Shown: positions 20,237-60,718 of the stretch, piece by piece
How positions within the stretch are numbered: the stretch's first letter is position 1
How the letters are laid out: every line of letters starts with the position of its first letter
NCBI RefSeq assembly: GCF_902652985.1
Contig: NC_047021.1
Coordinates: 26,164,001-26,228,000 of the forward strand
Length of the DNA: 64,000 nt
Origin: Pecten maximus
Taxonomy: Eukaryota
Reading direction: 5' to 3'
Notes under the pieces: model-generated
What the model was told of the DNA's origin: nothing
The model's input: the letters and a program-made list of their open reading frames with translations, nothing else
Databases searched by the model: none
Program-made: the position numbers and the translations under genes

Positions 20237-20407
20237 AATACACACTGTTTTTCGTCAAGTCGTGTGTAAACATTAAATCGTGTCTGGTAGCCATTACACA
20301 TAATATCTTACAGGTAAATACACACTGTTTTTCGTCAAGTCGTGTGTAAACATTAAATCGTGTCTGGTAGCCATTACACATAATATCTTACAGGTAAATA
20401 CACACTG
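20237..20407. repeat. Exact 80-bp tandem duplication
   Basis: AATACACACTGTTTTTCGTCAAG...CTTACAGGTA occurs twice plus a partial third start. Confidence 0.9.
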
Positions 20408-23478: not shown

Positions 23479-23611
23479 TAAGGATTGTACCTCATTTTGA
23501 CTGCGTATACGGTAGTATGCCCACAGTTGGCAACGCGCTAACCATAGGAAATGTTCGTTGCCAACTGCGGGCATACTACCGTATACGCAGTCAAATAAGT
23601 TACAATCCTTA
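23479..23611. mobile_element. Hairpin/MITE-like palindrome (~55-bp arms, ~20-nt loop)
   Basis: TAAGGATTGTACCTCATTTTGACTGCGTATACGGTAGTATGCCCACAGTTGGCAACG pairs with CGTTGCCAACTGCGGGCATACTACCGTATACGCAGTCAAATAAGTTACAATCCTTA. Confidence 0.7.
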
Positions 23612-33700: not shown

Positions 33701-34776
33701 TTGTTGAGGCTATTTCTCATTTATTTACTATGGTTACGACTAAAGTCATTTAGATAGTCGTGTTGCCATGTAATAATCAATGAAGAACTCTTCCTCGATA
33801 TTCCAGGGTTACGTCTACTTTGGCTTTGTGTAGAGAGCAAAAGTAAACGTAACCCATATATTATTGAGGATGTAGATAACTGTACCTTGCGGACGAATTT
33901 CCTGTGTTTGTACACGTTATACACATTGATCCTGATGGACGGCCCAGCCAGAGTACCAACCAACGTATCGTTCTGTGTCTCATTGTCGATTCGCAGTTCC
34001 TCATTCAACACGTGGTACAATATCACATTCACCAGCTCGGTAACGTTATTGTTCAGTAACTTCATTACGGCGGGCGATAATTTGGAGAAAGCGCTGTTAT
34101 TTGGAGCAAACATCGTCATAGGACCTGCAATAGGAAATAAAATATACTTTTGTTGACGAATAAACAATACCACGACGTCAATTTTAAAGGAAGAAACTGA
34201 ACAGTGAAATTCACTTAAACGATAACCACCGAATGCGAGGGCACATGTTCACTGGGAGATGGGAAAGTTATACTCCAGTAGAGTGTCTTCTTCACCAAGT
34301 TTGGTATCCGTCATTTTGCATCCTGTCTGTCACGAGTAAATCATGGTGCTGCTCTGACCACATCTAACGCTAGTATCAAACTGAACCTCAATCTAACGCT
34401 AGTATCAAACTGAACCTCAATCCAAAATCTAGTTGACATGAACCACGTCTGAAGCATGTCCTGTTACTATACAAGAGCATCACTATTGGTTGGAAAACAA
34501 GTGTGTTTGAGTTTGGGATATTTTAGGTCACGAGCAACATTGGGTAACTGGACATATTACACAAGAAAAAGAAGAATTGCAGATGACCCCGGATTAATAT
34601 ACTTTTATAGGCTTACCTGGTGCAGAGAGGGGCTGTCCAAGACTAGCCACGTTGATGAAGTTAGCGAAGATCGTAGCCCCGACCTTGGCAGCCAGATCTG
34701 GCAGGTAAACGTCATATTGTCCATAGGCAGGGGATAACGAGCAGAACATCAAAATCACCAAAGACAGAGAGGCCAT
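24712..34776 (-). CDS. Secreted two-FAS1-domain protein B, 6 exons: 34776-34617, 34124-33886, 32309-32123, 27234-27133, 25738-25619, 24833-24712; ~309 aa
   Basis: Signal peptide MASLSLVILMFCSLSPAYG; H1 TMFAPNNSAF and TIFAPTDAAF; YH ILYHVL and LTYHIC; H2 NGVLHVLNGVL and NGVVHGMDTVL. GT-AG introns, phases 1,0,1,1,1; 930 nt in frame. Confidence 0.9.
26194..27030. repeat. 63-bp minisatellite, ~13 copies, intron 4 of FAS1-B
   Basis: Unit GATAAGATTGTATCCCCTGTATGATATGATCATCTGTCTATATAAAACAACATTATGTTACAA. Confidence 0.95.
28102..32060. repeat. 49-bp satellite, ~80 copies, intron 3 of FAS1-B
   Basis: Unit CTTAAGTCAGTGTAATATGGGTAGATGATGTCGGGGTTTAATATGACAT, highly homogeneous. Confidence 0.97.
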
Positions 34777-36540: not shown

Positions 36541-39500
36541 ATGTTGAAAAGACTTCGAAATGTACACGTAGTGTTTTGGACGATATTTATAGTACTCCCT
36601 ATAATATTTATCTTTGCCAGGTCTGTGGTATTACTAAGTACTCCTGCACGCCACAAAATACGTAAGTAAATCATCGACGTTTTATATTGACCTAATACTA
36701 ATTTGAATATGTTGAGCACATACCTATGGATAATCTAAAAGCAAAATCGATTTGTCACATTTTGATTCAACTGTATTTAGCGATGAGAGCTGCTAAATCA
36801 CTTTACCGTATACATCAATATGTACTTTAAAACAATATGTTGCAATAGCTGGTCTTAAATGTTCTCATTTTGTGATTTTTCACAGGAAAGCTCACAAACT
36901 TCCCGAATGTCGCCAAACAAGCCTTACATGTGCAGCACCCTAAAGTAAAAACGGAAGCTGATATCATGATAGTCGGGTATATCCGTGGAGGGTCAACATT
37001 CCTGGGAGAGCTGATGGGGATCAGAAAGGATAGTTTTTATCTGTATGAACCGCTGTACAGACTCAGTAAACTTGGCTACTACAAACCTGGGTATCATTGT
37101 AACACTATGGACACCTACTGTACGTAAGTATTGTAAATCTTACATATCTTACATCTGTCTACAGCATCTTCAGTTAAGGTATACTAATAACAAGATAAAC
37201 TCGATTAATGCAGATACAAATAGTTATGTTTAATATATATCGTAATGAAATATTACACAGACTTGTTTTTCAGTGGAATAGGTGAATTGATATCTTCGCA
37301 ATATCAGAAATAAGATAGTTTAAATCCTAGCATATATCTGTTACAACGGAGGACGTAATATGGAAGACCCCTCTCTAACACCAACTCTAGGCTTTCCTCT
37401 AAATGCTGTATTTCTTGAGTTACTCTGAATAGCTGTAATAACTTCCCTTCCTCGATATTTACAGTAAATTCACATCCTATCCCCGTCCTCGATATTTACA
37501 GTACAATTGACAAGCTATCTCCGTCCTCGATATTTACAGTACAATTGACAACCTACCCCGTCCTCGATATTTACAGTACAATTGACAACCTATCCCCGTC
37601 CTCGATATTTACAGTACAATTGACAACCTATCCCCGTCCTCGATATTTACAGTACAATTGACAACCTATCCCCGTCCTCGATATTTACAGTACAATTTAA
37701 TCCTACCCCCGTCCTCGATATTTACAGTACAATTGACAACCTACCCCGTCCTCGATATTTACAGTACAATTGACAACCTATCCCCGTCCTCGATATTTAC
37801 AGTACAATTTACATCCTACCCCCGTCCTCGATATTTACAGTACAATTGACATCCTATTCCCGTCCTCGATATTTACAGTACAAAGTTATTTTCCTTTGCA
37901 AGCGAAAATTGCATTCAAAAATGAATAGATGAATAGACTTGTTCAGATTAAAGGCACTGATAACAATGGAACACAAACAACAATACCCTGCCGACATATG
38001 AGCTGTCAGACAAGTTAAACGTCACGGATTCAAAGAATGTGACTTTTCAGCACATAAGAGACAACCAAACATCACCTTACAAACTTCAAATTTGTACATT
38101 TGTTTCGGGTATATCTTTTTATATCGTGATTGTTCCAGAATTTAATATTGACAATGTTGCATTAGAAACAAATAATTTGGTATTGTTTACTATTGATTCC
38201 CAGACTCACGAAGCATTAATAATATCCCTATTACTTTCCCAGCTGACAATGCAACATATATTGAATCCTACTCCCCGTGTCATTTTTTTCTATTTCAAGT
38301 TATCATATGAAACATCGCAACAATTTCCTGTCGATTACAAACTTTGTCATGTTGTGGTAAACAATGTCACGATTTGTTTATGAGATACATTGTAAATACA
38401 CGATACATGAAACTGTGGTAAATGATTTCATATTGAAGGTCATTGGAGCTAATCTATGATGACACATGGGCATGTTAGTGTAGAACTTCTCTGTGCAAAG
38501 TGGTATTGTATTACACTTTAATTGTACATGTGGGTTAAATCAGTCGAGTATTCTGTGTTGATGTGCGTGTTATGTGCATATTTAGATATATATGACTATG
38601 TACGTATTTTGGAATTCCATTTTTATTGATGTACTTTATACTTTATAGACTGTTAAGGGGTTACAAAAGATAAGTTCACATCAATAGCACATCCTGTGCC
38701 ATACACACCCTCGTACTGAATTTGTTGCGCTAATACACATAGAATGAGATATTGCGTAGGTGTTCTTTCGTCAAACGATTCTCTGCCTACTGCTAGCAAC
38801 ATACTTCTCCACGAAGTACGGCCTAGTGCGTCCAGTAGTGAATAACATACGTTTTGACGATACAAGAATAAAACCCGGTATCAGTAAAAAGTGCCCATTC
38901 AATCAGTATAAAACACATATTTATGATGAGGTTTTGTTATCTCCAGAATCTCGAATTTTGGTGTCTTTCAGTAATTTCTCGATGCCATGTTTCAGCTCTC
39001 GTCACCATACTCGATATATGAGATTAAAAAAGCGAGCCTTGTAATGTTTGGTTATCACGTGTATGCCGTTTTGTGCTAAATACATATCGAATTAGCATGA
39101 CTAAACCGTCCTCAGTGAATACCTTTGACATGTTAGTTCCATCTCATGTGATATAAGTTGTCGCGTTTAAAATTACCGTCGACAACGCTTCGCTATACAA
39201 CTTCTAAGCTGGATACAACAAACGTAACCTAAACAATTGGATTTAATGAGGTTTTGACGGTAACGAGATTTTTCATTCTAAAGTTGGTACATGTTAACTA
39301 ATAGTGCGGCTCAAAGATACTTCTTATACGTTCAGTGTCGGTACGTATTGCTAGGAGAAATTTGCCTATCTTTCTTTATGTTTGTCTTTTCCAGTGGAGC
39401 GATGAAAATGGATATGCATGCCCTTGGTTTTCTTAAATCCATATACAGCTGTGATTTCCGACTGATGGAGGGCAAGATATCGCTTTGGAGTTTTGCCAAG

Positions 39501-40217
39501 GGACGTGGAGACTTCAACTGGACAAAGTCACTAACAGACTGCAATGGACAGTTTCAAAATTGTTTCAACAAACAAATCCGCCGATGCGTTAGTGCAACAT
39601 CTATAGTTACCAAGGTCGTAAGAGTGACCGTAGGTTTAGTAGGTAGAATGCTTCACAAGTATCCTAATTTGAAAATTGTGCACTTAATGAGAGATCCACG
39701 AGCTGTGATTAACTCAAGGATGGAAATATGGCCATCAAATACAAAGAATATCCTAGAGTCTGCACGCAGTCTGTGTCGGAAAATGAAGGAAGATTTCATG
39801 GATTCTAAGCGATTGCTAATACAAAATCCTAATAGGGTTCGCACTGTGTTTTATGAGGATTTAGCAATGGACCCGATCACCGTTACAAAAGATTTATATA
39901 AATTTGCAAATTATAGTTTTACTGCAGATGATGAAATAAGAATCAGACAAATGACCGAATCTGATTTAACTGTGGAAAAGGCACAGCGTAAATGGAGCTT
40001 GTTCAAACCAAATTCCAGTGATACTGCCCGACAATGGCGCCTGACTATCCCCCCATCCGTTTCACTTCTGACCGGGCTGGGGTGTTCAGAGATATACGAT
40101 ATGGCTAGATATCCGGAGCTTAAGACAAAGGATGACTTGCGGAACTCTAGTATCCCTCTTAGACTCCCTATAAGCTCAAAATCGCTGTTGCATGACTATC
40201 TCAGTCATAATGGTTGA
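36541..40217 (+). CDS. Golgi carbohydrate sulfotransferase (CHST1/GlcNAc-6-O-sulfotransferase-like), 3 exons: 36541-36661, 36886-37123, 39395-40217; ~393 aa
   Basis: Type II membrane anchor (VVFWTIFIVLPIIFIFA); 5'-PSB-like YIRGGSTFLGE and FYLYEP; 3'-PB LKIVHLMRDPRAVINSR; YEDL; terminal W-R. GT-AG introns phases 1 and 2; 1182 nt in frame. Confidence 0.88.
37449..37882. repeat. 37-38-bp minisatellite, ~11 copies, intron 2 of sulfotransferase
   Basis: Unit CCCCGTCCTCGATATTTACAGTACAATTGACAACCTAT. Confidence 0.95.
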
Positions 40218-41650: not shown

Positions 41651-44600
41651 TTAAACACTGGTGCGCCCCCTTGACTGAGTGACCGGATGTAGTAACTCTA
41701 CGTGTGACAATCGCGCCATCTGGAAGCTTCCTCTACCATTCTGCTGCTGTAGGAAATCATTTGAATGGCAGCCCTGGAGAGACGCGGGTTTAAGACCGTA
41801 GTGTTTGTAGTGGTAGAGAAGCTTGTGTAGGTCTGGGAACGTCTCGCCTTTGAATATGAAATAAGACAACTGCCCGTTCTCTTGTGTCATGTATATGGCA
41901 TAATGGATCAACTTCCTCAGGTGACTGAAAGCAGAAACGGCGGTTTACTCATTTAAAACGGCGGTTTACTCATTTAAATCAAGATATTTATAGGACGAGT
42001 AATTCTTAATCTCCTTATCCGATTGTCCAGTTATCTTAATCCGAAATCAATTGGAACACAATGTTATATTTCCTGTTTCACAAAAAAAAATATTATAACA
42101 CGGAAAGGCTACAAAAATCTATTTTTGAAAAGTTGTATACTGTATAAGCGGGAAATAAAATGTTTATATAATATTGATTGAAGCTGATGGAGGGCAAAAC
42201 AAACCATGTCAAACTGTCTATGCAATTGTACACCATGAAAAGATAACATTAAAAAGACGATAGCAAATACAGACATTCGTACATTGTAACATGAATCCAA
42301 ATTCTACCATGTTTGCTATGTAACGCCAGTTTTGATTGGTTAAAAACCATGTATTATTTTCCAATAACCCACGCTCGTGCCAATAATACACGCTCGTGAG
42401 TCACGGCTGTTACAATTTTAAATATCTAATATTCACCCGTTTCATAAAAGGTTACTATAGCCGAGTGGGCTAATGTGTTAGTCTTTCAATATATTTTCGT
42501 CACGACGCGAGTTCGAATCCTTACGGAAGCCCCCACTTTTTTTTCTTTTCTTTTATCCTTTTTTTTTAAATTTTCAAAATCAATGCCATATGATAGATGC
42601 TCTTGATCGTAGTACTGTATTGCCTGTATATTTCATCAACAAATAATGCAATACTCAAGAAATAAATTACAAGGTTTTCCCGGGGTTTCTTTGCTGTTTT
42701 TCTATTAGAAAGAGGTCGATCTCAGAACTAAACAGTACATGGTAGAATAGAAATAATCAACTTTGACTCGTGTATTGTTGCAGGATATACAACTCGGACT
42801 CGGATATTTTGCAATTTTAATTAATAACTCAGGCCTGCGGCCTTCGTTATTAATTTAATTGCAAAATATCCTCATCCTCGTTGTATATCCTGCAATAATA
42901 CACGAATCATCGTTAATTATTTCTTAAGTAAACTGCATATGATACGTGAATTGAAATTTTTGTTGTGCTTTAAAAGAATTTCTAATGAAAATTTCCCGAA
43001 TTTTATTTTTGGCTCTAGTGTATCTATCTCTCACTCTGTACTAATATCTCCTGTAGTACAACCCTTTGATATTACACGTTGTAGAAGCTACTAGTGAACG
43101 TACGTCCTTGAGGTTCTCCGTTGCCTTTATGTCGTGTTCTGATTCATTAGTGTCACAATTCATAAGTGTACATGGCGTTCGTTTGACACCAAGATTAAAT
43201 AGTAAAAGTTATTTAATAATAGGGCTATTGCAACCCATCTCCCGATTTAATTGATATTTCTTTTGACATATTTGCGTTTCCTCAGTCGTCTCCTAGGTTC
43301 TAACACTAGCGTCACTGACGAGTCCTAGCACTACGAAACAGCTGTATGATGCAGGTTAATCCATGTGTGCTTCTACAATTATACTGTATCTATGATGCTA
43401 CTGTGTCTATGATGTTACTGTATCTATAATTCTACTGTATCTATGATTCTACTGTATCTATAATTCTACTGTATCTATGATTCTACTGTATCTATGATTC
43501 TACTGTATCTATGATGTTACTGTATCTATGATTCTACTGTATCTATGATGTTACTTTATCTATGATGTTACTGTATCTATAATTCTACTGTATCTATAAT
43601 TCTACTGTATCTATAATTATATTGTATCTATAATTCTACTGTATCTATGATTCTACTGTGTCTATGATGTTACTGTATCTATGATGTTACTGTATCTATG
43701 ATTATATTGTATCTATAATTCTACTGTATCTATGATGCTACTGTATCTATGATGTTACTGTATCTATAATTCTACTGTATCTATAATTCTACTGTATCTA
43801 TGATGTTACTGTATCTATAATTCTACTGTACCTATGATTCTACTGTATCTATGATTCTACTGTATCTATGATTCTACTGTATCTATGATTCTACTGTATC
43901 TATAATTCTACTGTATCTATAATTCTACTGTATCTATGATTCTACTGTATCTATGATTCTAGTGTATCTATAATTCTACTGTATCTATGGTTCTACTGTA
44001 TCTATGATTCTACTGTATCTATAATTCTACTGTATCTATGGTTCTACTGTATCTATGATTCTAGTGTATCTATAATTCTACTGTATCTATGGTTCTACTG
44101 TATCTATGATTCTACTGTATCTATGATTCTACTGTATCTATAATTCTACTGTATCTATAATTCTACTGTATCTATGATTCTAGTGTATCTATGATTCTAC
44201 TGTATCTATGATTCTACTGTATCTATGATTCTACTGTATCTATGATTCTACTGTATCTATGATTATATTTTATCTATAATTCTACTGTATCTATAATTCT
44301 ACTGTATCTATAATTCTACTGTATCTATGGTTCTACTGTATTTATAATTCTACTGTATCTATGATTCTACTGTATCTATGATTATATTTTATCTATAATT
44401 CTACTGTATCTATAATTCTACTGTATCTATAATTCTACTGTATCTATAATTCTACTGTATTTATAATTCTACTGTATCTATGATTCTACTGTATCTATAA
44501 TTCTACTGTATCTATAATTCTACTGTATCTATAATTCTACTGTATTTATAATTCTACTGTATCTATAATTCTACTGTATCTATAATTCTACTGTATCTAT

Positions 44601-47600
44601 AATTCTACTGTATCTATAATTCTACTGTATCTATGATTCTACTGTATCTATGGTTCTACTGTATCTATGATTCTACTTTATCTATAATTCTGCTGTATCT
44701 ATAATTCTACTGTATCTATAATTCTACTGTATCTATAATTCTACTGTATCTATGATGTTACTGTATCTATGATTCTACTGTATCTATAATTCTACTGTAT
44801 CTATGATTCTACTGTATCTATGATGTTACTGTGTCTATGATGTTACTGTATCTATAATTCTACTGTATCTATAATTCTACTGTATCTATAATTCTACTGT
44901 ATCTATGATTCTACTGTATCTACAATTCTACTGTATCTACAATTCTACTGTATCTATGATTCTACTGTATCTATGATTCTACTGTATCTATGATTCTACT
45001 GTATCTATAATTCTACTGTATCTATGATTCTACTGTATCTATGATTCTACTGTATCTATAATTCTACCGTATCTATAATTCTACTGTATCTGTGATTCTA
45101 CTGTATCTATAATTCTACTGTATCTATGATGTTACTGTATCTATGATGTTACTGTATCTGTGATGTTACTGTATCTACAATTCTACTGTATCTATAATTC
45201 TACTGTATCTATGATGTTACTGTATCTATGATTATATTGTATCTATGATTCTACTGTGTCTATAATTCTACTGTATCTATGATTCTACTGTATCTATAAT
45301 TCTACTGTATCTATAATTCTACTGTATCTATAATTCTACTGTATCTATGATGTTACTGTATCTATGATTCTACTGTATCTATAATTCTATTGTATCTATG
45401 ATGTTACTGTATCTATGATGTTACTGTATCTGTGATGTTACTGTATCTACAATTCTACTGTATCTACAATTCTACTGTATCTATGATTCTAATGTGTCTA
45501 TAATTCTACTGTATCTATAATTCTATTGTATCTATAATTCTACTGTATCTATAATTCTACTGTATCTATAATTCTATTGTATCTATAATTCTACTGTGTC
45601 TATAATTCTACTGTGTCTATAATTCTACTGTATCTATGATTCTACTGTGTCTATGATGTTACTGTGTCTATGATGTTACTGTGTCTATGATGTTACTGTA
45701 TCTATGATGTTACTGTATCTATGATTCTACTGTGTCTATGATGTTACTGTGTCTATGATGTTACTGTGTCTATGATGTTACTGTGTCTATGATGTTACTT
45801 TATCTATGATTCTATTGTATCGAACTTATTTGTTTTCACATGTCCTAATATCCTGTATCCTTTTTGTACAATCCTTTACATCATACAACTCCTGACGTAT
45901 TAGCCTGGAGGTATTATATGATAATTATGACTATCCCATTTGATTCTCAGTCGTCAACGTATTGACAGGTGATCTAAATTATTCTCGCATGAGTAAGTAA
46001 CAAAAGTCTATCACGAAGTATTTAGTGTTAACACAAACATCAAAACAGCAGAAAGTGCTCTTGGTGTAAAGGTATAAACAGAATTGCATTCATATAAATT
46101 CCGAGAAAGTTACTCAAGTGTATTTTTTTCATCCTAGCCTACGCTAACTATTTTGCCTGAAAACATTCCCACGGATTCAGATACACATCTTACAATTAGG
46201 ACTAAATATGCCATGGCTTTAGAATAAAACAGCGTGTCTATCTAAAAAGCCTCTATCTGCCTACATGGAATATCAAATTATGTGTCTACCTGAATGTAAG
46301 AACTACAAATGGCCGCTGTCAAAATAGACCTGAGGGGTAAAAAATGTCTACCTGTCAAACAGAATCATATTTCACAGTTATATGCCTACCTGACAATGAG
46401 AGCTAGGGATATCTGTCTGTTAAATATAATTATATGCCTACCTGACAATGAGAGCTAGGGATACCTGATAAACAGAATTATATGCCTACCTGATAATGAG
46501 AGCGAGGGATACCTGTTAAACAGAATTATATGTCTACCTGACAATGAGAGCTAGGGATACCTGTTAAACAGAAGTATATGTCTACCTGACAATGAGAGCT
46601 AGGGATACCTGTTAAACAGAATTATATGCCTACCTGATAATGAGAGCTAGGGATACTTGTTAAACAGAAGTATATGTCTACCTGACAATGAGAGCTAGGG
46701 ATACTTGTTAAACAGAAGTATATGCCTATCTGACAATGAGAGTTTGGGATACCTGTCTGTTAAACATAAATATATGCTTACCTGACAATGAGAGCTAGGG
46801 ATACTTGTTAAACAGAAGTATATGCCTATCTGACAATGAGAGCTAGGGATACCTGTTAAACAGAATTATATGCCTACCTGACAATGAGAGCTAGGGATAC
46901 CTGTTAAACAGAATTATATGTCTACCTGACAATGAGAGCTAGGGATACTTGTTAAACAGAAGTATATGCCTATCTGACAATGAGAGCTAGGGATACCTGT
47001 TAAACAGAATTATATGTCTACCTGACAATGAGAGCTAGGGATACTTGTTAAACAGAAGTATATGCCTATCTGACAATGAGAGTTTGGGATACCTGTCTGT
47101 TAAACATAAATATATGCTTACCTGACAATGAGAGCTAGGGATACCTGTCTGCTAAACAGAATGATATGCCTACTTGACAATGAGAGCTAGGGATACCTGT
47201 CTGCTAAACAGAATTATATACCTACCTGACAATGAGAGCTAGGGATACCTGTCTGCTAAACAGAATATACCTACCTGACAATGAGAGCTAGGGATACCTG
47301 TCTGCTAAACAGAATTATATACCTACCTGACAATGAGAGCTAGGGATATCTGTCTGGTAAACATAATTATGTGTCTTATCTAAAAATGTGGAACATATGT
47401 GCACTGAAAAAGAGATTTAAACGACTGCCCTGCATAGCTAGCAGTGACCTTAATGGTTTATGCTCGCCTACATGCCACTTACAGATAGGACTACGGACAC
47501 CTACATGACAAGGACTATATACAACTGCTGCTTACCTGACAGTGAGCACAAGCTTCTTCTTCGAGGCCATGTACCACAACAGGTAGTGTCCATCAGAGTT

Positions 47601-50600
47601 GATAAAGTGTCTCATCTTATTTTCCACCTGTCTCATTAGAACAATAAACAAGTCACTTTACGGAGTTACTATCTACATTGTATTGTCTTAGTTTAAATGA
47701 AATACATAACTTAATTAGCCCGTGTGTTTGATTCTGATTAAATTACACCAACATGTAAATGTTTCCCCAGCTCAATAACACTCACCGTGTTCTCATTATC
47801 CCTCGGACTCCATTCCAGGTATCTACCCAACACCTTGTTTAGGTGTACGAACTTTGAATCAGCGCCTCCTGACCTGCTGCTGGGGTACGGTGCTGGTCTG
47901 TTGTTGCGTGGGGGTAGCGTTGGGGGCGTGTCTTGACGACTAGATGAAATCTGATGACACCTATCTACCTTTCTGGCTGGTAGTGGTGGTACTGTTTGCA
48001 TCTCTGTTGGTTGAGGACAAATATCGTCTACATTGTATGACATTGTATGTGTCTCGGGAAAGTTAAAACGAGGCGATACAGTATTTGTCCTGCCATTGTC
48101 CGAAATTGGAATCTCCACTTCTTGTGTCCTGTCTGGCTCGTGTGGATATACTCGAGGGGTTGAATGATGCGTTGCATCCATATCACTATTCGCATTTTTA
48201 AATACATCATCCGCGTCATCGCAATGTTCTATAGGACTTCTGTGCTGACGAGTAAACATGTCACCGATTGTCCCCAGATTATGCCCGTGCATTACCTGTA
48301 CGTTATCGAAAGTGAATCGTCCGATGTTCGTTTCTTTGTAGGTCATAGTTTCCCTGTTTAAACGTTGATAGGATGCTGTCGTATCGGATACGGACCGACC
48401 CATTACATGGGGACGTGTCTCCACCAAACCTTCTGTGTCATTTTCCATTGTGATATTTTCGGTTACGACTCTTACAAGCTTGCAGTGTGTCTGGCTGTGG
48501 TAAGGCGCCTTCACGAATGTCTGTTCCAAGTCGTCATCATGAAAATCCTGGCAATGTTGAGCGTGGGATGACACTCGTTGGAAACTTTTGTATCCGGAAG
48601 TTTCTGGCGATATTTTGTCCAAATCAGATTTGTTATTTGTCCCTTTCATGTCCACATCCATATCAGTGGTAGACGACACAACGTTTTCATTATCCGAATC
48701 ATCACTCAACTTCCGCCTAGTAGCCTCGCCTTCTTGCTCTGTCCGTGTGACATTACATGTTGTATCTGTCCTGTGAGAAGCTATGGTGAATCGTTCTCTA
48801 CCTAAGCAGGACACGCTTCCGATCTCTGATAGCTCACATGTACAACTACGGCAGTGCAATCCGGACTCGATTTTTCGGAGAGTTCTGTTATTAATTTCCT
48901 TATCCAGTAGTGAGTGAACTGTTTTCTGAAATATGTAAAATCAACAGAATAATGAAAAGAAATGATGTAAATGAACAACTCTTCAAATTCAACACATTAA
49001 CATGCACGTCGTCACAGAGTAAAGACCACGTCGTCACAGAGTCAAGACCATGTCGTCACACAGTCAAGACCAAGTCGTCACACAGTCAAGACCAAGTCGT
49101 CACACAGTCAAGACCAAGTCGTCACAGAGTCAAGACCAAGTCGTCACAGAGCCAAGACCATGGCGTTACACAGTCAAGACCACGTCGACACATAGTCAAG
49201 ACCAAGTCGTCACAGAGAAAAGACCAAGTCGTCACAGAGTAAAGACCATGGCGTTACACAGTCAAAACCACATCGTCACAGAGTAAAGACCACGTCGTCA
49301 CAGAGTAAAGACCACGTCGTCACATAGTCAAGACCAAGTCGTCACAGAGTCAAGACCATGGCGTTACACAGTCAACACCACGTCGTCACAGAGTCAAAAC
49401 CACGTCGCCACAGAGTAAAGACCACGTCGTCACATAGTCAAGACCAAGTCGTCACAGAGTCAAGACCATGGCGTTACACAGTCAAGACCACGTCGTCACA
49501 TAGTCAAGACCAAGTCGTCACAGAGCCAAGACCATGGCGTTACACAGTCAACACCACGTCGTCACATAGTCAGGACCACGTCGTCACAGAGTAAAGACGA
49601 AGTCGTAACAGAGTCATGACCACGTCGTCAAAGCGTCGAGAACACTTCACCCTTCACAATGATAATCATTGTCCACTATTGAAAGTGAAAAGTCAGCCTA
49701 AGATTGAATACGTCACATTTGTCACATTCAACTATCCCGTCCCTACTTGTATGTTAAAATGGTATATATATAAATATTTGCTTTTTTACTTATAATTGTT
49801 TTATTATTATAAGTTTTCATTGATTTTTGTTGCTTTATTTTATTTTGGAAAACGTGTTTGACAAATTACCTGGGAAAAAGTTTTAAACTTGCCACAATAC
49901 AAGCATTCCTCTGAAACATAGTCTTTGTGGCCAGGACAGGTTTCAATGCAACGTTTATGATCATCTACTGAAATGTTTCTAACAGTTTGTGTGCCAGTCG
50001 GATGCTCTCTACTGATACCCGACTTATCACCAAGAATATGTCTTTCTCCTGTCTCGACGCTTTTGTGCGGACAAGCGTTACCGCTATAGCGTCCTGTTAA
50101 CTGTTGATTCGGTTCTGACAAGTTGTTTTGCTCCTCCTGATTGCGGTAATGAGTACATTCTAGATATGTTGTCAAGGAAATTCCTTTACCGGAGCGCCTT
50201 TTTCGGCGTACGGACAAATGCATGCCCTGAAAACGAGGAACATAAAATGATGTACTATGTATGATATAAAGTTATATAGAACGCAACACTTACACAAATA
50301 TTGAATTGACTTTTGATTGACTGTGAAAATGTTATGTTTTATTCAGAGAAATTGAATGGTATATTACTTTAAACTGATGTGCTCTGTCTGTCCATGCCGC
50401 GCAGATCTCATAATCCTGTAGCTCCCCGCCGAAGACATTTTCCAGACTATCCTTGAGCGTCGCCTGGCAACGGGTTGGCACGGTAAGGAAGTAAGGTTTG
50501 ACTGTGTCACACGGGACTGTCTCATCTGTTATCTTCAGGTGCAGCTTCATCGAGAGTAAGTCTGAAAGCATGGACCAGGACAGTGTAAGATATTAATTAA

Positions 50601-53600
50601 AAACTTTACAGGTAATATTAATTATACTGTATTACCTGTGTTATATTCCTATTTACTCTGTATTATTGTCAGTATATAACCCTGCCAAACAAAATCATAA
50701 TTCTCACATAAATGGTGCCGTGATATGATCAACGCTAAACAATGACGTTGTTTTGTCTGACTTCAAATATACTTAGTGTATTGTGACGTCCTTGCTACCG
50801 AATTAAACAAGAATTTCACGGAAGTTGATGTGTCGCCTGCACAGCAAGCTAGTAGATGGATCTCAGATTATCGCACGGAAACCATTGTACCCCGAAACAA
50901 TACATGTAGTTATGTTGCATTAAATATGAATACCATCACGGTGGAATATATCGCTTAAAACGATATAATTAGATTAATGAGTTTTTATTTCCACGAACTG
51001 TATTGTTTTTTGTCAAGAACGGTGTCGTGTACTCATAAGAACAGTTCCCATTAACAATACGAAATTTGATTTTGGAATGCAATGACACTGTAACAGATTT
51101 GATAAAAGAACAATCAAATCTAATGCGGAAATACCAGTATTAAACAGCCTTTGCTAGAAACTTATGGTCATATATAACACGCAGTATTCAATCTGTCTGC
51201 AATCCTGCGAGAATAATCAGACAATAGCTTTCCAAGGAAGGAAGTTTAATGCTTAAATAATGTTTATTTATCTAGGGACGTGACTAAGAGAATTATACAC
51301 GTATTTACATGAACATACTTTTTATTGCCTGTTCCAAAAACACGACACAGTCCAACCGGCCACACTGTTTTAGAGACTCCAATAACACGTATATAGATCG
51401 ACCCCTTTCCTGTTTCGTCCAGTCTCTCAAAACTAGGTATCCCGGTGGCTTGTACTCGGCAGTTGATTGGTGATCAAACTCGTCAATCTTGTCTCTAGAA
51501 TAGCCCATGATTTCAGCAAGGCTTGCCCAGTTACCTCTCGTCATGTTCTGTAGCTTCAGTGACAGTTGATATAATACCTAGTAAAGATACAGACACCAAT
51601 GATATGTATACAGTTATCGTCACATAGTCCATAGGTGTTTAGCACGTGTATAAGTCCAAGACCGATTATAGACTAATATATATAGAAAGGTCTGCAACTC
51701 ATCCGTCCTTCAAAAAATCGTCAATTTCATTCAAAGTGTCGTCAAAATGTTACCAGAAAAGATTTTTCAATGCCGATAGTCTTAATCAAACACTTGCATA
51801 CTCTCTATCTAAACTAAGATCATAAAATTCAAAGTCTCTCTATTAATAAGACATACTCCAAACACTACCCCTGAAAACTCTCTAAGACTAAATCCTTATT
51901 CCAAAGACTCACTCTGAAAACTCTTCCAACAACTCAATCTAACAAGAAATATCTTAAAAAAAAGATAAACGGCATAGTTTTAATGCTGGTGGTTATAATG
52001 TAAAACTACTGGTGAAATAAGTTAACGAACTACATTGTAATTAATAAATGCGCAGTTTCAGCACGGATAACAAAATTATATCAGTTTGAATCATTTTTGG
52101 TGATAATAAGACTGCAAATGTGTCATTTGAATAGATGCATCCACTTATTCAGCTTGCATTCAATTTAAAAGGGACATCACGGTAAAAACGTTGCAATTTT
52201 CACTGAATGTACGCGTTTTGTTCCTTTCCAGTTATGTTTCTGTGCTGTCCCAATGTTTACAGTCAATCCCTATGTCCAGCTTGACCACTCGATTTAGTTG
52301 GGAATCCCCCTCTAAATTTAGAGCGGAAATTATTTTTAAATCATTACGTGACTGTTATGAAATTGTGGCAGCACAAACACACGATAGTTTACAAGGCGAT
52401 ACATATATTTCATCTGGGTTAGTTGGATAACGATATTATACAGTGGTTTAAATGTTAAATAACACGTTCTGTATATATTACGGCACACATATTTATGTGT
52501 AAATAAGTGTAAACATTGTTCATATAGTATAGTGACAGTAGCGATGTACTGGTACAGACTGTATAAATATTACCGAGTTTGTGGAACTATTACAGAGTGT
52601 GTGGAAATCTTATCGAGATTGTCATGACCTACTATCAAACAATCAAGCAGAATACGAGCGGCGTCCGTATTACTGTTGTTTTCATGTTTGAACTGTTACA
52701 GTCTATTGTACTGCTTCCCAAGTTTAATTCTAGTATTGTGTTTGACCCATTTTCCTATTATTCTCTTCATTGCGGAAGCTGTTATCGTTTTCAACCGCAG
52801 TCGATTCACATTGGAAGCCATTTTTGTTTCCATGTGTTTTAGTTTGTTGTGCGCATGCGTTTATCGTATATGTCACAAAATTTTTGCATATTCAGATTGT
52901 TTGATAACCTTTTAATAATTGATAATTGATGTTTTTATGTACATAGGCCTACATCATCGAATTCGAATGGTTATTGTTCAGAAGGTTATTTTTTTTAAAG
53001 ATATACCTAATAATATGATAAAAAATACAAAATAAATATTGGTTTACCGTGAGGTCCCTTTAACTTTGTTTCGTTTTTAACTGTATATCTGCATTTTGCA
53101 TTGACCGCTACATTGACCAATCACATACTTCATCTTGACCAGAACGCCACCTGTCGCGTCATGTCCGGGGCCAAAACAAAATTAGACGACTATGCCGAAA
53201 AAAGACCCTACTCTAAGTTAACAGACCTTTATATATGGCCAGCAAACTATTTTTGACTAGTGACATCACTTGCTAAACCCCACTACATACACTATAGATG
53301 CTAAACTTAACCACCGACACAGTCTAATAATAGAATGACATCATGGTCTATATATACAATCTGTAGGAACCGACTATAAACAGAGCATAATAGACAACAT
53401 CAGATACTGGTCAACAGACAACATCAGATACTGGTCAACAGACAACATCAGATACTGGTACATAGACAACATCAGATACTGGTCAACAGACAACATTTAC
53501 ACTTAAATTCAACAAATGCCTGAACAAGGGAAATCAGCAAAACAAGATAGAGATACTCAGTGAAATATTTAAAGCAGAAACTCAGTAAAATACTCAACAC

Positions 53601-56600
53601 AGAAACTCAGTTAAATACTCAACACAGAAACGCAGTGAAATACTCAACATAGAAACTCAGTTAAATACTCAACACAGAAACTCAGTAAAATACTCAACAC
53701 AGAAACTCAGTAATATCCTCAACACAGAACTCAGTTAAATACTCAACATTGAAACTCAGTAATACACTCAACACAGAACTCAGTTAAATACTCAACACAG
53801 AACTCAGTTAAATACTCAACATAGAAACTCATTTAAATACTCAACACAGAAACTCAGTTAAATACTCAACACAGAACTCAGTTAAATATACTCAACATAG
53901 AAACTCAGTTAAATACTCAACACAGAACTAAGTTAAATACTCAACACAGAACTCAGTTAAATACTCAACATTGAAACTCAGTAATACACTCAACATAGAA
54001 CTCAGTTAAATACTCAACACAGAACTCAGTTAAATACTCAACATAGAAACTCATTTAAATACTCAACACAGAAACTCAGTTAAATACTCAACACAGAAAC
54101 GCAGTGAAATACTCAACATAGAAACTCAGTTAAATACTCAACACAGAAACTCAGTAAAATACTCAACACAGAAACTCAGTAATATCCTCAACACAGAACT
54201 CAGTTAAATACTCAATATTGAAACTCAGTAATACACTCAACACAGAACTCAGTTAAATACTCAACACAGAACTCAGTTAAATACTCAACATAGAACTCAG
54301 TTAGATACTCAACACAGAACTCAGTTAAATACTCAACATAGAAACTCAGTAATATCCTCAACACAGAACTCAGTTAAATACTCAACATTGAAACTCAGTA
54401 ATACACTCAACACAGAACTCAGTTAAATACTCAACACAGAACTCAGTTAAATACTCAACATAGAAACTCATTTAAATACTCAACACAGAAACTCAGTTAA
54501 ATACTCAACACAGAACTCAGTTAAATACTCAACATAGAAACTCAGTTAAATACTCAACACAGAACTAAGTTTAATACTCAACACAGAAACTCAGTTAAAT
54601 ACTCAACACAGAACTCAGTTAAATACTCAACATTGAAACTCAGTAATACACTCAACACAGAACTCATTTAAATACTCAACACAGAAACTCAGTTAAATAC
54701 TCAACACAGAACTCAGTTAAATCAACATAGAAACTCAGTTAAATACTCAACACAGAACTAAGTTAAATACTCAACACAGAAACTCAGTTAAATACTCAAC
54801 ACAGAACTCAGTTAAATACTCAACATTGAAACTCAGTAATACACTCAACATAGAACTCAGTTAAATACTCAACACAGAACTCAGTTAAATACTCAACATA
54901 GAAACTCATTTAAATACTCAACACAGAAACTCAGTTAAATACTCAACACAGAAACGCAGTGAAATACTCAACATAGAAACTCAGTTAAATACTCAACACA
55001 GAAACTCAGTAAAATACTCAACACAGAAACTCAGTAATATCCTCAACACAGAACTCAGTTAAATACTCAACATTGAAACTCAGTAATACACTCAACACAG
55101 AACTCAGTTAAATACTCAACACAGAACTCAGTTAAATACTCAACATAGAACTCAGTTAAATACTCAACACAGAACTCAGTTAAATACTCAACATAGAAAC
55201 TCAGTAATATCCTCAACACAGAACTCAGTTAAATACTCAACATTGAAACTCAGTAATACACTCAACACAGAACTCAGTTAAATACTCAACACAGAACTCA
55301 GTTAAATACTCAACATAGAAACTCATTTAAATACTCAACACAGAAACTCAGTTAAATACTCAACACAGAACTCAGTTAAATACTCAACATAGAAACTCAG
55401 TTAAATACTCAACACAGAACTAAGTTAAATACTCAACACAGAAACTCAGTTAAATACTCAACACAGAACTCAGTTAAATACTCAACATTGAAACTCAGTA
55501 ATACACTCAACATAGAACTCAGTTAAATACTCAACACAGAACTCAGTTAAATACTCAACATAGAAACTCATTTAAATACTCAACACAGAAACTCAGTTAA
55601 ATACTCAACACAGAAACGCAGTGAAATACTCAACATAGAAACTCAGTTAAATACTCAACACAGAAACTCAGTAAAATACTCAACACAGAAACTCAGTAAT
55701 ATCCTCAACACAGAACTAGGTTAAATACTCAACATTGAAACTCAGTAATACACTCAACACAGAACTCAGTTAAATACTCAACACAGAACTCAGTTAAATA
55801 CTCAACATAGAACTCAGTTAAATACTCAACACAGAACTCAGTTAAATACTCAACATAGAAACTCATTTAAATACTCAACACAGAAACTCAGTTAAATACT
55901 CAACACAGAACTCAGTTAAATACTCAACATAGAAACTCAGTTAAATACTCAACACAGAACTAAGTTAAATACTCAACACAGAAACTCAGTTAAATACTCA
56001 ACACAGAACTCAGTTAAATACTCAACACAGAAACTCAGTTAAATACTCAACACAGAAACTCAGTTAAATACTCCATACAGAAACTCAGTTAAATACTCAA
56101 CATAGAAACTCAGTTAAATACTCAACACAGAAACTCAATTAAATACTCAACACAGAAACTCAGTAATATCCTCAACACAGAAACTCAGTTAAATACTCAA
56201 CACAGAAACTCAGTTAAATACTCCATACAGAAACTCAGTTAAATACTCAACACAGAAACTCAGTTAAATACTCAGCACAGAAACTCAGTTAAATACTCAA
56301 CACAGAACTAAGTTAAATACTCAACATAGAAACTCAGTTAAATACTCAACACAGAAACTCAATTAAATACTCAACACAGAAACTCAGTGAAATAATCAAC
56401 ACAGAAACTCAGTGAAATAATCAACATAGAAACTCAGTTAAATACTCAACACAGAAACTCAGTTAAATACTCAACACAGAAACTCAGTTAAATACTCAAC
56501 ACAGAAACTCAGTAATATACTCAACACAGAAACTCAGTTAAATACTCAACACAGAAACTCAGTTAAATACTCAACACAGAAACTCAGTGAAATACTCAAC

Positions 56601-58277
56601 ACAGAAACTCAGTAAAATACTCGATACAGAAACTCAGTAAAATACTCAACATAGAAACTCAGTTAAATACTCAACACAAAAACTCAGTAAAATACTCGAT
56701 ACAGAAACTCAGTTAAATACTCAACAGAGAAACTCAGTTAAATACTCAACATAGAAACTCAGTTAAATACTCAACACAGAAACTCAGTAAAATACTCGAT
56801 ACAGAAACTCAGTTAAATACTCAACACAGAAACTCAGTTAAATACTCCATTCAGAAACTCAGTTAAATACTCAACACAGAAACTCAGTAAAATACTCAAC
56901 ACAGAAACTCAGTTAAATACTCAACACAGAAACTCAGTTAAATACTCAACACAGAAACTCAGTTAAATACTCAACACAGAAACTCAGTTAAATACTCAAC
57001 ATAGAAACTCAGTTAAATACTCAACACAGAACTCAGTTAAATACTCAACACAGAAACTCAGTTAAATACTCAACACAGAAACTCAGTTAAATACTCAACA
57101 CAGAAACTCAGTAAAATACTCAACACAGAAACTCAGTTAAATACTCCATACAGAAACTCAGTTAAATACTCAACACAGAAACTCAGTAATATCCTCAACA
57201 CAGAAACTCAGTTAAATACTCAACACAGAAACTCAGTTAAATACTCCATACAGAAACTCAGTTAAATACTCAACACAGAAACTCAGTTAAATACTCAACA
57301 CAGAAACTCAGTTAAATACTCAACACAGAACTAAGTTAAATACTCAACATAGAAACTAAGTTAAATACTCAACACAGAAACTCAGTAAAATACTCAACAC
57401 AGAAACTCAAATTAGGAACCCACTAATGACTTATGACCCAGGCTGGTAAAAGGACGTGTAACAAATCAAACCAAACCAAACCCACTAAAAACTAAACCCA
57501 ACAATTAAAACAACAAATCAAACCAACCCCACTAAAAACTAAACCCAACAATTAAAACAACAAACCAACACACGATCAAAGACACGTATAGATAGAAAAA
57601 GTCATCACGTTATGGAATACTTGTTGATACAATGTACAAATATTTAAAAAAGAAAGCTGGGCATGCTATGTAAATATACAGGATGCTAATTATATATTTA
57701 CTACGAATGATCATAAACTATTAGAAGTAATCTAATGTCGGGACGGTATAATATAATTTGACATACATTTTAATTAGTAAGGATTGCTTGTTAATCAATT
57801 TGATAATCTTGGAAGATACATGTAAGTGATAATGAGTCAAAGGCATAAAAAGTCTTAAATATCACCATGTGCGTGAAAGTACATTGAGTAACATCATTAA
57901 TATAATATAGGTATAGGACATTACAATCGTATTGAACTGTTTGAGTTCACCATTCTAAGAACAAATTAATGTGGAAGTACATTGGTATACTACGATACTA
58001 CTGAAAACGAGAGTTATAACAATATAAAATGTTCCACTAGAATGGTGTTTAAATGTTAGGATATATTAGAGAAAAAACGAATTTCTAAGTCCCTGGTAAT
58101 ATATCATTAAAGTGTAATACTTACCTCAAGCGTCAACTCCTTGGCTGGTCTGTCCAGGTCCTCGTAAGTCACCTGTCCAGAGTTTTGACCAACACCAGGT
58201 TGTCCAACATGATTTTGACTAGTATGTCCTAAGCATTGCTGACCCACGTGACCAAAGTTAGGTACCATCGGATCCAT
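41651..58277 (-). CDS. Putative signalling adaptor: death domain + RBD/ubiquitin-like domain + Pro-rich linker + atypical SH2; 7 exons: 58277-58125, 51577-51319, 50561-50368, 50226-49870, 48925-47786, 47627-47536, 41924-41651; ~822 aa
   Basis: All six introns GT-AG with matching phases (0,1,0,0,0,2); 2469 nt open; in-frame TAG upstream of ATG 58277. Death domain LSLKL..NWASLAEIMGY..LVLRDW..LLESLKQCGRLDCV; SH2-like DGHYLLW..LVLTVS..LIHYAI..GETFPDLHKLLYHY..LLHPV. Confidence 0.8.
42301..42927 (+). mobile_element. Interspersed non-autonomous element, copy 2 (complete long terminal palindrome; tRNA-like A/B-box cassette at ~42450-42537)
   Basis: Reverse-complement match to 21666-22207; palindrome ~42768-42905 centred on AGGCCTGCGGCCT; A box TAGCCGAGTGG, B box GTTCGAATCC, then T-runs. 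Confidence 0.8.
43383..45820. repeat. 17-bp satellite, ~140 copies, intron 6 of adaptor gene
   Basis: Unit ACTGTATCTAT(A/G)AT(TC/GT)T. Confidence 0.97.
46380..47375. repeat. 48/52-bp minisatellite, ~20 copies, intron 6 of adaptor gene
   Basis: Unit CTACCTGACAATGAGAGCTAGGGATACCTG(TCTG)TTAAACAGAATTATATGC. Confidence 0.95.
49007..49635. repeat. 22-bp minisatellite, ~28 copies, intron 4 of adaptor gene
   Basis: Unit GTCGTCACAGAGTCAAGACCA(A/C). Confidence 0.93.
53392..53495. repeat. 24-bp tandem repeat, ~4 copies
   Basis: AGACAACATCAGATACTGGTCAAC. Confidence 0.85.
53555..57410. repeat. 24/25-bp satellite, ~155 copies with higher-order structure, intron 1 of adaptor gene
   Basis: Unit AGAAACTCAGTTAAATACTCAACAC. 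Confidence 0.97.
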
Positions 58278-59464: not shown

Positions 59465-60718
59465 ATATTCTGTATCTATTATTACAAAGTATATAATGTA
59501 TCTAGTATTAAACAGTATATTCTGTATCTAATATCAAACAGTATATTCTGTATCTAATATCAAACAGTATATTCTGTATCTAATATCAAACAGTATATTC
59601 TGTATCTAATATCAAACAGTATATTCTGTACCTACATGTAGTATTAAAAGGTATATATTGTATCTAGTATTAAACAGTATATTCTGTATCTAATATTAAA
59701 CAGTATATTCTGTATCTAGTATTACACAGTATATAATGTATCTAGTATTAAACAGTATATTCTGTATCTAATATCAAACAGTATATTCTGTATCTAATAT
59801 CAAACAGTATATTCTGTATCTAATATCAAACAGTATATTCTGTACCTACATGTAGTATGAAAAGGTATATATTGTATCTAGTATTAAACAGTATATTCTG
59901 TATCTAATATTAAACAGTATATTCTGTATCTAGTATTAAACAGTATTACTGTATCTAGTATTAAAAGGTATATATTGTATCTAGTATTAAACAGTATATT
60001 CTGTATCTAATATCAAACAGTATATTCTGTACCTACATGTAGTATGAAAAGGTATATATTGTATCTAGTATTAAACAGTATATTCTGTATCTAATATTAA
60101 AAAGTATATTCTGTATCTAGTATTAAACAGTATTACTGTATCTAGTATTAAAAGGTATATATTGTATCTAGTATTAAACAGTATATTCTGTATCTAATAT
60201 CAAACAGTATATTCTGTACCTACATGTAGTATTAAAAGGTATATATTGTATCTAGTATTAAACAGTATATTCTGTATCTAATATTAAACAGTATATTCTG
60301 TATCTAGTATTAAACAGTATTACTGTATCTAGTATAAAAGGTATATAGTGTATCTAGTATTAAACAGTATATACTGTATCTAGTATTAAACAGTATATTC
60401 TGTATCTAGTATTAAACAGTATGTACTGTATCTAGTATTACACAGTATATACTGTTTCTAGTATTAAACAGTATATACTGTATCAGGTATTAAACAGTAT
60501 ATACTGTATCTAGGATTAAACAGTATATAGTGTTTCTAGTATTAAACAGTATATACTGTATCTAGTATTACACAGTATATACTGTTTCTAGTATTAAACA
60601 GTATATGCATGTACTGTATCTAGGATTAAACAGTATATTCCGTTTCTAGTAATAAACAGTAATAACTGTTTCTAGTATTAAACAGTAAATACTGTGTCTA
60701 TGATTAAACAGTATATTC
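59465..60718. repeat. 26-bp satellite, left of LINE insertion
   Basis: Unit TGTATCTAGTATTAAACAGTATATTC. Confidence 0.95.

What the first reader, a model, noticed from the sequence alone, without database searches (positions are those of the whole stretch)
47536..47627. SH2 domain lacks the invariant phosphotyrosine-binding arginine (FLVR -> YLLW)
Seen: exon 6 encodes NSDGHYLLWYMASKKKLVLTVS, with a TGG codon at 47574-47576. Knowledge: canonical SH2 reads DGTFLVRES, and Arg betaB5 is essential for pTyr binding. The alphaA2 Arg position also looks divergent. Exon 7 carries an insertion of roughly 25 aa between HYKHYGL and the terminal LLHPV strand. Inference: a pseudo-SH2 acting as a phospho-independent or decoy module.
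Basis: partly seen in the sequence, partly recalled or inferred. Interest (0 to 1): 0.7.

Follow-up and report, generated by a model that had tools for sequence, protein, structure and literature searches.

The report
Mollusc death-domain adaptor with tryptophan pseudo-SH2
This scallop gene encodes a signalling adaptor whose SH2 domain has a tryptophan in place of the arginine that normally grips phosphotyrosine, a swap kept in every clam and snail relative examined, so the domain has likely been repurposed as a phosphorylation-independent docking module in what is likely an immune or death-receptor pathway.

Summary
The window holds a spliced, intact 7-exon minus-strand gene whose 822-aa product is identical to a Pecten maximus protein. 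It has a death domain, a predicted beta-grasp domain, a long disordered linker and a C-terminal SH2-fold domain. Trp719 (TGG, 47574-47576) occupies the FLVR-arginine position betaB5. It is not a private change: 28 of 28 family proteins that cover the strand have Trp (22 named bivalve and gastropod species), and 30 of 30 other scallop SH2 loci examined keep Arg. AlphaA2 is Glu and betaD6 is Ala, so no canonical basic residue rescues the pocket in the scallop. A slug paralogue joins the same Trp-SH2 to a CARD. Best reading: a pseudo-SH2 that no longer reads phosphotyrosine and acts as a constitutive docking module in a death-domain scaffold whose linker carries SH3-, TRAF6- and (in snails) PI3K-type motifs. 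Ligand, pathway and 'decoy' role are untested. Arg-to-Trp has a precedent in human SH2D5, but this architecture and family were not found in the literature searched.

The parts
58125..58277 (-). Exon 1 (aa 1-51): start codon, N-terminal tail and first helix of the death domain
   Evidence: gene model; loose end of an RNA-type contig matches this exon's 3' end (run X6)
51319..51577 (-). Exon 2 (aa 52-138): death domain (whole domain about aa 38-139)
   Evidence: Pfam Death E 1.1e-11; AF2 pLDDT about 90; spliced
50368..50561 (-). Exon 3 (aa 138-202): most of a predicted beta-grasp (ubiquitin-like) domain, aa 141-210
   Evidence: beta-beta-alpha-beta-alpha-beta topology at pLDDT 77-91; Atlas structure hits SOSEKI DIX-like TM 0.62 and YukD 0.49, both under the naming bar; no Pfam hit
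49870..50226 (-). Exon 4 (aa 203-321): last strand of the beta-grasp domain (invariant Gly203), then disordered linker with a Cys-rich segment
47786..48925 (-). Exon 5 (aa 322-701): disordered linker, docking motifs, extra N-terminal helix and start of the SH2 (invariant Trp693, Glu699 at alphaA2)
48218..48235 (-). PxExxD motif (aa 552-557), TRAF6-binding-like; motif meaning recalled, binding untested
   Evidence: present in 4 of 4 scallops; PxExx[FWYDE] in 16 of 24 linkers against 9.3 in shuffles
47906..47989 (-). Two PxLPxR motifs (aa 634-639, 656-661), class II SH3-binding type; motif meaning recalled
   Evidence: PxLPx[RK] in 10 of 24 linkers against 0.5 in shuffles
47536..47627 (-). Exon 6 (aa 702-732): alphaA, betaB, BC loop and betaC of the SH2; ends at a phase-2 intron shared with other scallop SH2 genes
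   Evidence: the same position and phase with a GT donor and an in-frame stop right after in 8 of 30 other SH2 loci (read)
47574..47576 (-). TGG codon, Trp719 at betaB5 (the FLVR-arginine position)
41651..41924 (-). Exon 7 (aa 732-822 and stop): betaD (His739 at betaD4, Ala741 at betaD6), betaE/F, alphaB, BG-loop insertion, betaG
   Evidence: Pfam SH2 partial hit
41696..41791 (-). Extended BG loop (aa 777-808), largely low-confidence, length variable across the family

Best explanation
This is a spliced scallop gene for an 822-residue adaptor with a death domain, a predicted ubiquitin-like domain, a long disordered linker and an SH2-fold domain in which the phosphotyrosine-binding arginine is replaced by a family-invariant tryptophan, so the SH2 likely no longer reads phosphotyrosine and likely serves as a constitutive, phosphorylation-independent docking module. 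Shown: the gene, the fold class, the pocket residues and their conservation across bivalves and gastropods. Inferred mechanism: (1) the death domain brings the protein into a death-domain signalosome (MyD88/IRAK type, or p75NTR/UNC5 type); (2) Trp719 fills the floor of the old pocket, next to the retained His at betaD4 and Ser/Thr at betaC5, and with an acidic or Gly alphaA2 turns the cleft from a phosphate site into one for an unphosphorylated, probably hydrophobic peptide, as JAK/TYK2 SH2 domains do with receptor tails; (3) the linker passes the signal on through SH3-type PxLPxR, TRAF6-type PxExxD and, mostly in gastropods, YxxM and other tyrosine motifs. The protein would thus be a platform that other SH2/SH3 proteins read, rather than a phosphotyrosine reader.
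For: Splicing and the TGG codon hold in 4 of 4 runs. Trp in 28 of 28 family proteins covering betaB5; Arg in all SH2 domains of the 5 non-family hits that were aligned and in 30 of 30 other scallop SH2 loci fetched, of 52 matches. W719 is 1 of 3 invariant columns in the full-length alignment. The 28 Trp domains form one clade (100/99) that broadly follows mollusc groups. The SH2 core is as conserved as the death domain (34% against 33% identity to non-scallop members; linker 12%). Fold: pLDDT 81, pTM 0.74; VIA Z 13.8, rmsd 1.6 over 97 residues to Abl SH2; Foldseek E 1e-6 to Grb7 SH2. Pocket: alphaA2 E13/G6/D2, betaD4 His 17 of 21, betaC5 Ser/Thr 21 of 21, betaD6 Ala 10 of 21. Linker motifs exceed shuffles. 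Precedent: FLVR-less SH2 domains of the JAKs bind receptor tails without pTyr (PMC7530234, section 12).
Against: No binding data and no ligand identified. The death-domain subtype is unresolved: p75NTR/NRADD 39-35 bits, MyD88 33, RIPK1 28; MyD88 Z 12.3, Tube 12.1, ties within 1; within the scallop genome the family profile scores other death domains (up to 30 bits) above the MyD88-like ones (15-17 bits, label from recall). The P. maximus linker has no YxxM. The death domain is shortened in heterobranch snails and absent from several annotated isoforms or partial models, so it is not the universal core. Linker motifs were chosen after seeing the alignment, and shuffles ignore relatedness. BC-loop Arg occurs in 11 of 21 relatives.
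Confidence: 0.5

Rival explanations
1. The domain still binds phosphate or another anion by a non-FLVR route, using BC-loop and betaD basic residues, as the p120RasGAP C-terminal SH2 does.
For: His at betaD4 in 17 of 21; Arg at BC1 in 11 of 21; Ser at betaB7 in 7 of 21; Arg at betaD6 in 4 of 21. The scallop has Lys724-726 beside the pocket. Precedent in PMC7530234 section 12.
Against: No basic position is conserved family-wide. The scallop has Met/Ala/Ser in the BC loop and Ala at betaD6; alphaA2 is acidic in 15 of 21. The RasGAP mode needs basic residues at betaD4 and betaD6.
Confidence: 0.15
2. The pseudo-SH2 is an intramolecular or structural module that packs against the beta-grasp or death domain and holds the adaptor closed until it is activated, in the way the JAK SH2 is part of a larger receptor-binding unit.
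For: The beta-grasp domain and the SH2 are both kept in members whose death domain is degenerate or absent; all 3 invariant residues lie in these two domains.
Against: The two domains are separated by 270-870 residues of poorly conserved linker; co-conservation fits separate functions equally well.
Confidence: 0.15
3. The whole protein is a decoy or brake: a kinase-less, TIR-less death-domain protein that enters a signalosome and dampens it, with the dead SH2 unable to pass on phosphotyrosine signals.
For: Only Death and SH2 are found by Pfam, no kinase and no TIR. BCAP, a YxxM adaptor, is a negative regulator of TLR signalling (PMC5241739 passages). Amphioxus SYK inhibits MyD88 through its SH2 domains (PMC13344425 abstract).
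Against: A pure decoy would not need an invariant Trp or a conserved SH2 surface; linker docking motifs suggest output. This reading is compatible with the best one if the docked output is inhibitory.
Confidence: 0.15
4. The Trp is a private mutation, a sequencing error or a sign of a decaying domain.
For: CGG/AGG to TGG is a single-base change; the Pfam SH2 score is marginal (22.1 bits against cut-off 21).
Against: TGG unchanged in 4 of 4 runs; Trp in 28 of 28 family proteins; SH2 core 83% identical among scallops against 56% for the linker.
Confidence: 0.02

Closest known systems
Human SH2D5 (SH2-like domain with Trp at betaB5), with RIN2 and TYK2 (His)
   Same: FLVR Arg replaced by Trp in an adaptor protein (PMC7530234 passages and section 12; PMC9783222 passages).
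   Different: SH2D5 pairs its SH2 with a PTB domain (recalled) and is called mammalian-specific (PMC11684657, start of abstract in listing). The mollusc family has a death domain plus beta-grasp, or a CARD. No hit named SH2D5 came up, so the Trp is likely convergent, but this was not tested on a tree.
Grb7/Grb10/Grb14 SH2 and PLC-gamma N-SH2
   Same: Best sequence and Foldseek matches for the SH2, including the 'SH-x-x-K-x-x-H' betaC-betaD motif of the Grb7 family.
   Different: They keep the FLVR Arg. The mollusc protein has no PH or BPS hit. The Grb7-family dimer Phe in alphaB (role recalled) aligns to His771. The donor family is unresolved: VIA Z values of many SH2 domains tie.
MyD88 / Tube / IRAK and p75NTR / NRADD / RIPK1 death-domain proteins
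   Same: N-terminal death domain; MyD88 gives the longest profile match, including the N-terminal extension; Z 12.3 to MyD88 and 12.1 to Tube. Like Tube (recalled), no kinase and a long disordered tail.
   Different: No TIR or kinase; adds a beta-grasp domain and a pseudo-SH2. The subtype is not resolved.
BCAP (PIK3AP1)
   Same: Works-like analogy only: a receptor-proximal interaction domain plus YxxM motifs that recruit PI3K p85 (PMC5241739 passages). YxxM occurs in 15 of 24 family linkers against 7.9 in shuffles.
   Different: BCAP uses TIR, DBB and ankyrin domains; none is found here. P. maximus itself lacks YxxM.

Membership tests
SH2 superfamily (PF00017) | SH2 fold (central sheet between two helices) | tested here: met
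   AF2 pLDDT 81, pTM 0.74; VIA Z 13.8, rmsd 1.6, 97 aligned; Pfam 22.1 bits against cut-off 21
Canonical pTyr-binding SH2 | Arg at betaB5 | tested here: not met
   Trp719; 28 of 28 family proteins
Canonical pTyr-binding SH2 | Basic residue at alphaA2 or betaD6 | tested here: not met
   Glu699 and Ala741 in the scallop; betaD6 is Arg/Lys in 5 of 21 relatives
Canonical pTyr-binding SH2 | His at betaD4 and Ser/Thr at betaC5 (position names recalled) | tested here: met
   His739 (17 of 21), Thr730 (Ser/Thr 21 of 21)
Canonical pTyr-binding SH2 | Phospho-dependent peptide binding | not testable with these tools
   needs a binding assay
SH2D5 | Trp at betaB5 | tested here: met
SH2D5 | N-terminal PTB domain (recalled) | tested here: not met
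   Pfam finds no PTB/PID in any of 25 members; the N-terminus is a death domain
SH2D5 | SH2 domains form one clade | not tested
   no SH2D5 sequence was returned by any tool
Grb7/10/14 | PH and BPS domains before the SH2 | tested here: not met
   no hit in 25 members; the region is predicted disordered
Grb7/10/14 | RA (beta-grasp) domain | tested here: inconclusive
   beta-grasp-like topology but no Pfam RA hit and no significant match to scallop RA/PB1/DIX loci (best E 0.14 among 814 ORFs)
MyD88 | N-terminal death domain | tested here: met
MyD88 | C-terminal TIR domain | tested here: not met
IRAK/Pelle/Tube-like | Kinase or pseudokinase domain, or a Tube-type death-domain subfamily | tested here: inconclusive
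   no kinase; death-domain subtype tied among MyD88, Tube and p75NTR/NRADD
BCAP/BANK/Dof | TIR, DBB and ankyrin domains | tested here: not met

The most novel reading that the evidence does not exclude
Molluscs have an old, undescribed class of death-fold signalosome scaffolds (death domain plus beta-grasp, or CARD) built on a repurposed SH2 in which an invariant betaB5 tryptophan makes a new, phosphorylation-independent ligand site, reached independently of human SH2D5. The family would be the mollusc link between Toll/TNF-type signalosomes and PI3K/SH3/TRAF6 outputs, and would supply a deep natural alignment for learning what Trp-type pseudo-SH2 domains bind.
Probability: 0.3. Interest if true: 0.75.

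Novelty: new variant of a known kind. Interest (0 to 1): 0.55.

Why it matters
FLVR-less SH2 domains are rare (3 of 120+ in humans, PMC7530234), and that review gives a structural account only for TYK2. Here a whole family, with members 23-44% identical to the scallop domain outside scallops, keeps a tryptophan at that position across bivalves and gastropods (a split of Cambrian age, recalled). That points to a selected new function rather than loss, and gives a tractable model for Trp-type pseudo-SH2 domains. The death-fold plus pseudo-SH2 layout is also a candidate missing adaptor in mollusc immune signalling, relevant to farmed scallops, clams and abalone and to schistosome-host snails (Biomphalaria, Bulinus), where orthologues are annotated only as uncharacterised.

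Tried and rejected
Complex prediction of the N-terminal unit (aa 36-214) with the SH2 (aa 676-816): no verdict, score 0.30 and 0.26 against a mark of 0.34, alignment not used; not counted for or against. Scallop Grb7-family gene: the BPS search found nothing and its control rang nowhere, so whether this gene is a paralogue or a transformed orthologue of Grb7/10/14 is open. Paralogues in the scallop: exon 7 matched only itself, exon 2 matched itself and one weak locus, the CARD-SH2 protein found nothing; absence is not shown. Members outside bivalves and gastropods: none among named hits, but one search recovered only 10 family proteins, so it is weak. My first pocket table was off by one residue and was redone. 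The automatic BG-loop length count mismatched in several rows and was not used. The raw phase-2 GT count of 14 of 30 includes chance GTs inside continuing frames; I kept the 8 with an in-frame stop right after. PxxP, YxN, Yxx[VIL], PPxY, pLxIS, PxQx[TS] and [ST]xQ[ED] motifs were not enriched. Literature searches for a death-domain plus SH2 protein in molluscs and for six gene identifiers found no description; PMC3039611 mentions the two terms separately (passages). Supplements were not read and subscription papers are not in the library. Earlier scan notes held nothing on this gene. Contig depths were not used to rank expression.
Full report
The gene. The finding lies on the minus strand. Seven exons (58277-58125, 51577-51319, 50561-50368, 50226-49870, 48925-47786, 47627-47536, 41924-41651), with AG/GT splice sites at all six introns, give an 822-aa open frame. 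The database protein P0001, named uncharacterized LOC117330397 of Pecten maximus, has that length and sequence. RNA-type contigs from four studies join exon 5 to exon 6, run on into exon 7 and show no other letter at the Trp codon (4 of 4 runs; only one of these is on record as RNA, three are guessed). The upstream joins appear.

The observation. TGG at 47576-47574 encodes Trp719 in GHYLLWYM. It aligns without a gap to the FLVR Arg of Grb14, PLC-gamma1 and a profile built from 28 of the scallop's own SH2 loci. Exon 6 ends at a phase-2 intron just after betaC. Eight of 30 other scallop SH2 loci have a donor followed by an in-frame stop at the same place, 14 residues after their Arg against 13 after the Trp, which supports the register independently. 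AlphaFold2 gives a confident SH2 (pLDDT 81, pTM 0.74) with an extra N-terminal helix and a low-confidence BG-loop insertion of 21-26 aa. Fold searches return SH2 domains (Z 13.8, rmsd 1.6 over 97 residues; Grb7 first in Foldseek). AlphaA2 is Glu699, betaD4 His739 and betaD6 Ala741. No canonical basic position is filled in the scallop.

Conservation. Three other scallops have GHYLLWYM unchanged. A profile search of 1.84 billion representatives gave 33 hits and a second-round search added one family protein and one outsider. Of the 38 proteins examined, 28 are family members that cover betaB and all 28 have Trp, 5 are fragments that lack the strand, and 5 are non-family proteins whose aligned SH2 domains all have Arg. 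The named members come from 9 bivalves (Pecten, Argopecten, Ylistrum, Mizuhopecten, Tegillarca, Mercenaria, Mactra, Mya, Ruditapes) and 13 gastropods (Lottia, Haliotis, Pomacea, Babylonia, Batillaria, Aplysia, Plakobranchus, Elysia, Biomphalaria, Bulinus, Physella, Candidula, Bradybaena); five have no name. In a 25-row full-length alignment only G203, W693 and W719 are invariant. A tree of 46 SH2 rows puts 28 Trp domains in one clade (100/99) that broadly follows mollusc groups; it is midpoint-rooted and holds no Grb7 or SH2D5 row. As a control, the 30 best of 52 Pfam SH2 matches in the scallop genome all keep Arg. The Trp is therefore old and selected.

The pocket across the family (21 domains). 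AlphaA2 is Glu 13, Gly 6, Asp 2. BetaB5 is Trp 21. BetaC5 is Ser/Thr 21. BetaD4 is His 17. BetaD6 is Ala 10, Arg 4, Lys 1, other 6. BC1 is Arg in 11 and betaB7 Ser in 7. So the classical phosphate clamp is gone everywhere, but some relatives keep basic residues that could support a p120RasGAP-like grip (PMC7530234 section 12). I had no model coordinates, so this is inferred from positions and not from measured geometry.

The rest of the protein. Residues 38-139 are a death domain (Pfam E 6e-10; pLDDT about 90). Its subtype is unresolved: p75NTR/NRADD, MyD88 and RIPK1 by profile, MyD88 and Tube by fold. Residues 141-210 form a confident beta-beta-alpha-beta-alpha-beta unit with weak beta-grasp matches (SOSEKI DIX-like TM 0.62) and no Pfam family. 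It is as conserved as the death domain and the SH2 (33%, 33%, 34%; linker 12%) and persists where the death domain is degenerate or missing. The linker is predicted disordered. In 24 linkers (P0048 dropped as a duplicate of P0015) PxLPx[RK] occurs in 10 (shuffles 0.5), PxExx[FWYDE] in 16 (9.3), YxxM in 15 (7.9), YxY[IV][DN] in 9 (0.1) and Y[ILV]PH in 6 (0.1). These patterns were picked after viewing the alignment and kin are not independent. Their meanings (SH3, TRAF6, PI3K p85) are recalled, except YxxM-p85 (PMC5241739 passages). P. maximus has two PxLPxR and one PxExxD but no YxxM. One Plakobranchus protein (P0033) joins the same Trp-SH2 to a CARD_2 domain (E 7e-11); it sits inside the clade on a long branch.

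How it most likely works. Shown: gene, fold, pocket residues, conservation. Inferred: the death domain recruits the protein to a death-domain signalosome; the Trp-floored SH2 cleft binds an unphosphorylated partner constitutively, as JAK SH2 domains do; the linker presents docking motifs to SH3, TRAF and SH2 proteins. I give this 0.5. An alternative phosphate grip, an intramolecular clamp and a pure decoy get about 0.15 each, and a private or decaying change 0.02.

Comparison and novelty. Arg-to-Trp at betaB5 is known from human SH2D5 (PMC7530234 passages and section 12; PMC9783222 passages; PMC12470777 passages add nothing), so the substitution is not a new kind. The protein is not an SH2D5, Grb7-family, MyD88 or BCAP member by domain content. 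Five topic searches and one on six gene identifiers found no description of this family or of a death-domain plus SH2 architecture in molluscs; subscription papers and supplements were not searched. Verdict: a real, deeply conserved pseudo-SH2 in an apparently undescribed mollusc adaptor family, a new variant of a known kind, with ligand and pathway open. Interest 0.55.

Noticed in passing
P0033 (Plakobranchus ocellatus GFO46492.1), not in the window: A CARD_2 domain joined to the same Trp-SH2: a second death-fold architecture for this pseudo-SH2. Its database name, SETMAR methyltransferase, does not fit its domains.
   Followed up: partly
window 50203-50553 (minus), aa 141-210: An unnamed beta-grasp-like domain, conserved across the family (SLEN helix end, W194, K-G203) with no Pfam model; worth a study of its own.
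   Followed up: partly
window about 48840-49950 (minus; exons 4-5), aa 296-350: Cys/His-rich segment (CPGHKxYVSEECxYCGKF...HCRSCxC) kept in 4 of 4 scallops and partly in the ark clam and one unnamed relative; modelled as a low-confidence sheet. Possible metal site.
   Followed up: no
P0006 and P0024/P0062 (venerid clams): Linker carries tandem (R/K)DPxEY repeats that read both as PxExxD and as YxxP motifs.
   Followed up: no
P0019/P0049 (Haliotis), P0020/P0051 (Biomphalaria), P0024/P0062 (Ruditapes): Annotated isoforms lack all or part of the death domain, or (Ruditapes X2) stop just after betaC of the SH2; these may be natural dominant-negative forms or annotation errors.
   Followed up: no
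window 36876-37124 and 39282-40214 (plus): ORFs that look like a carbohydrate sulfotransferase (recalled motifs), convergent with and just downstream of this gene.
   Followed up: no
window about 15100-34250: Several exon-sized ORFs with fasciclin (FAS1)-like motifs (label recalled).
   Followed up: no
window 5709-5999 and 10285-11181 (plus): Two-part ORFs of a class A GPCR, melatonin-receptor-like by recall.
   Followed up: no
window 60995-62802 (minus): LINE-type reverse transcriptase fragments in three pieces upstream of exon 1 (label recalled).
   Followed up: no
window 43400-45800, 46400-47350, 48990-49640, 53600-57400, 59500-60700: Long tandem-repeat arrays inside introns 6, 4 and 1 and upstream of the gene.
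   Followed up: no
window 51640-52600: Intron 1 stretch covered by many short, divergent RNA-type contigs with loose ends, typical of a multicopy repeat.
   Followed up: no
L036, L037, L039-L042, L044, L047, L048: An expanded set of near-identical death-domain exons on several contigs (UNC5-like by recall) that score above the MyD88-like ones against this family's death-domain profile.
   Followed up: no
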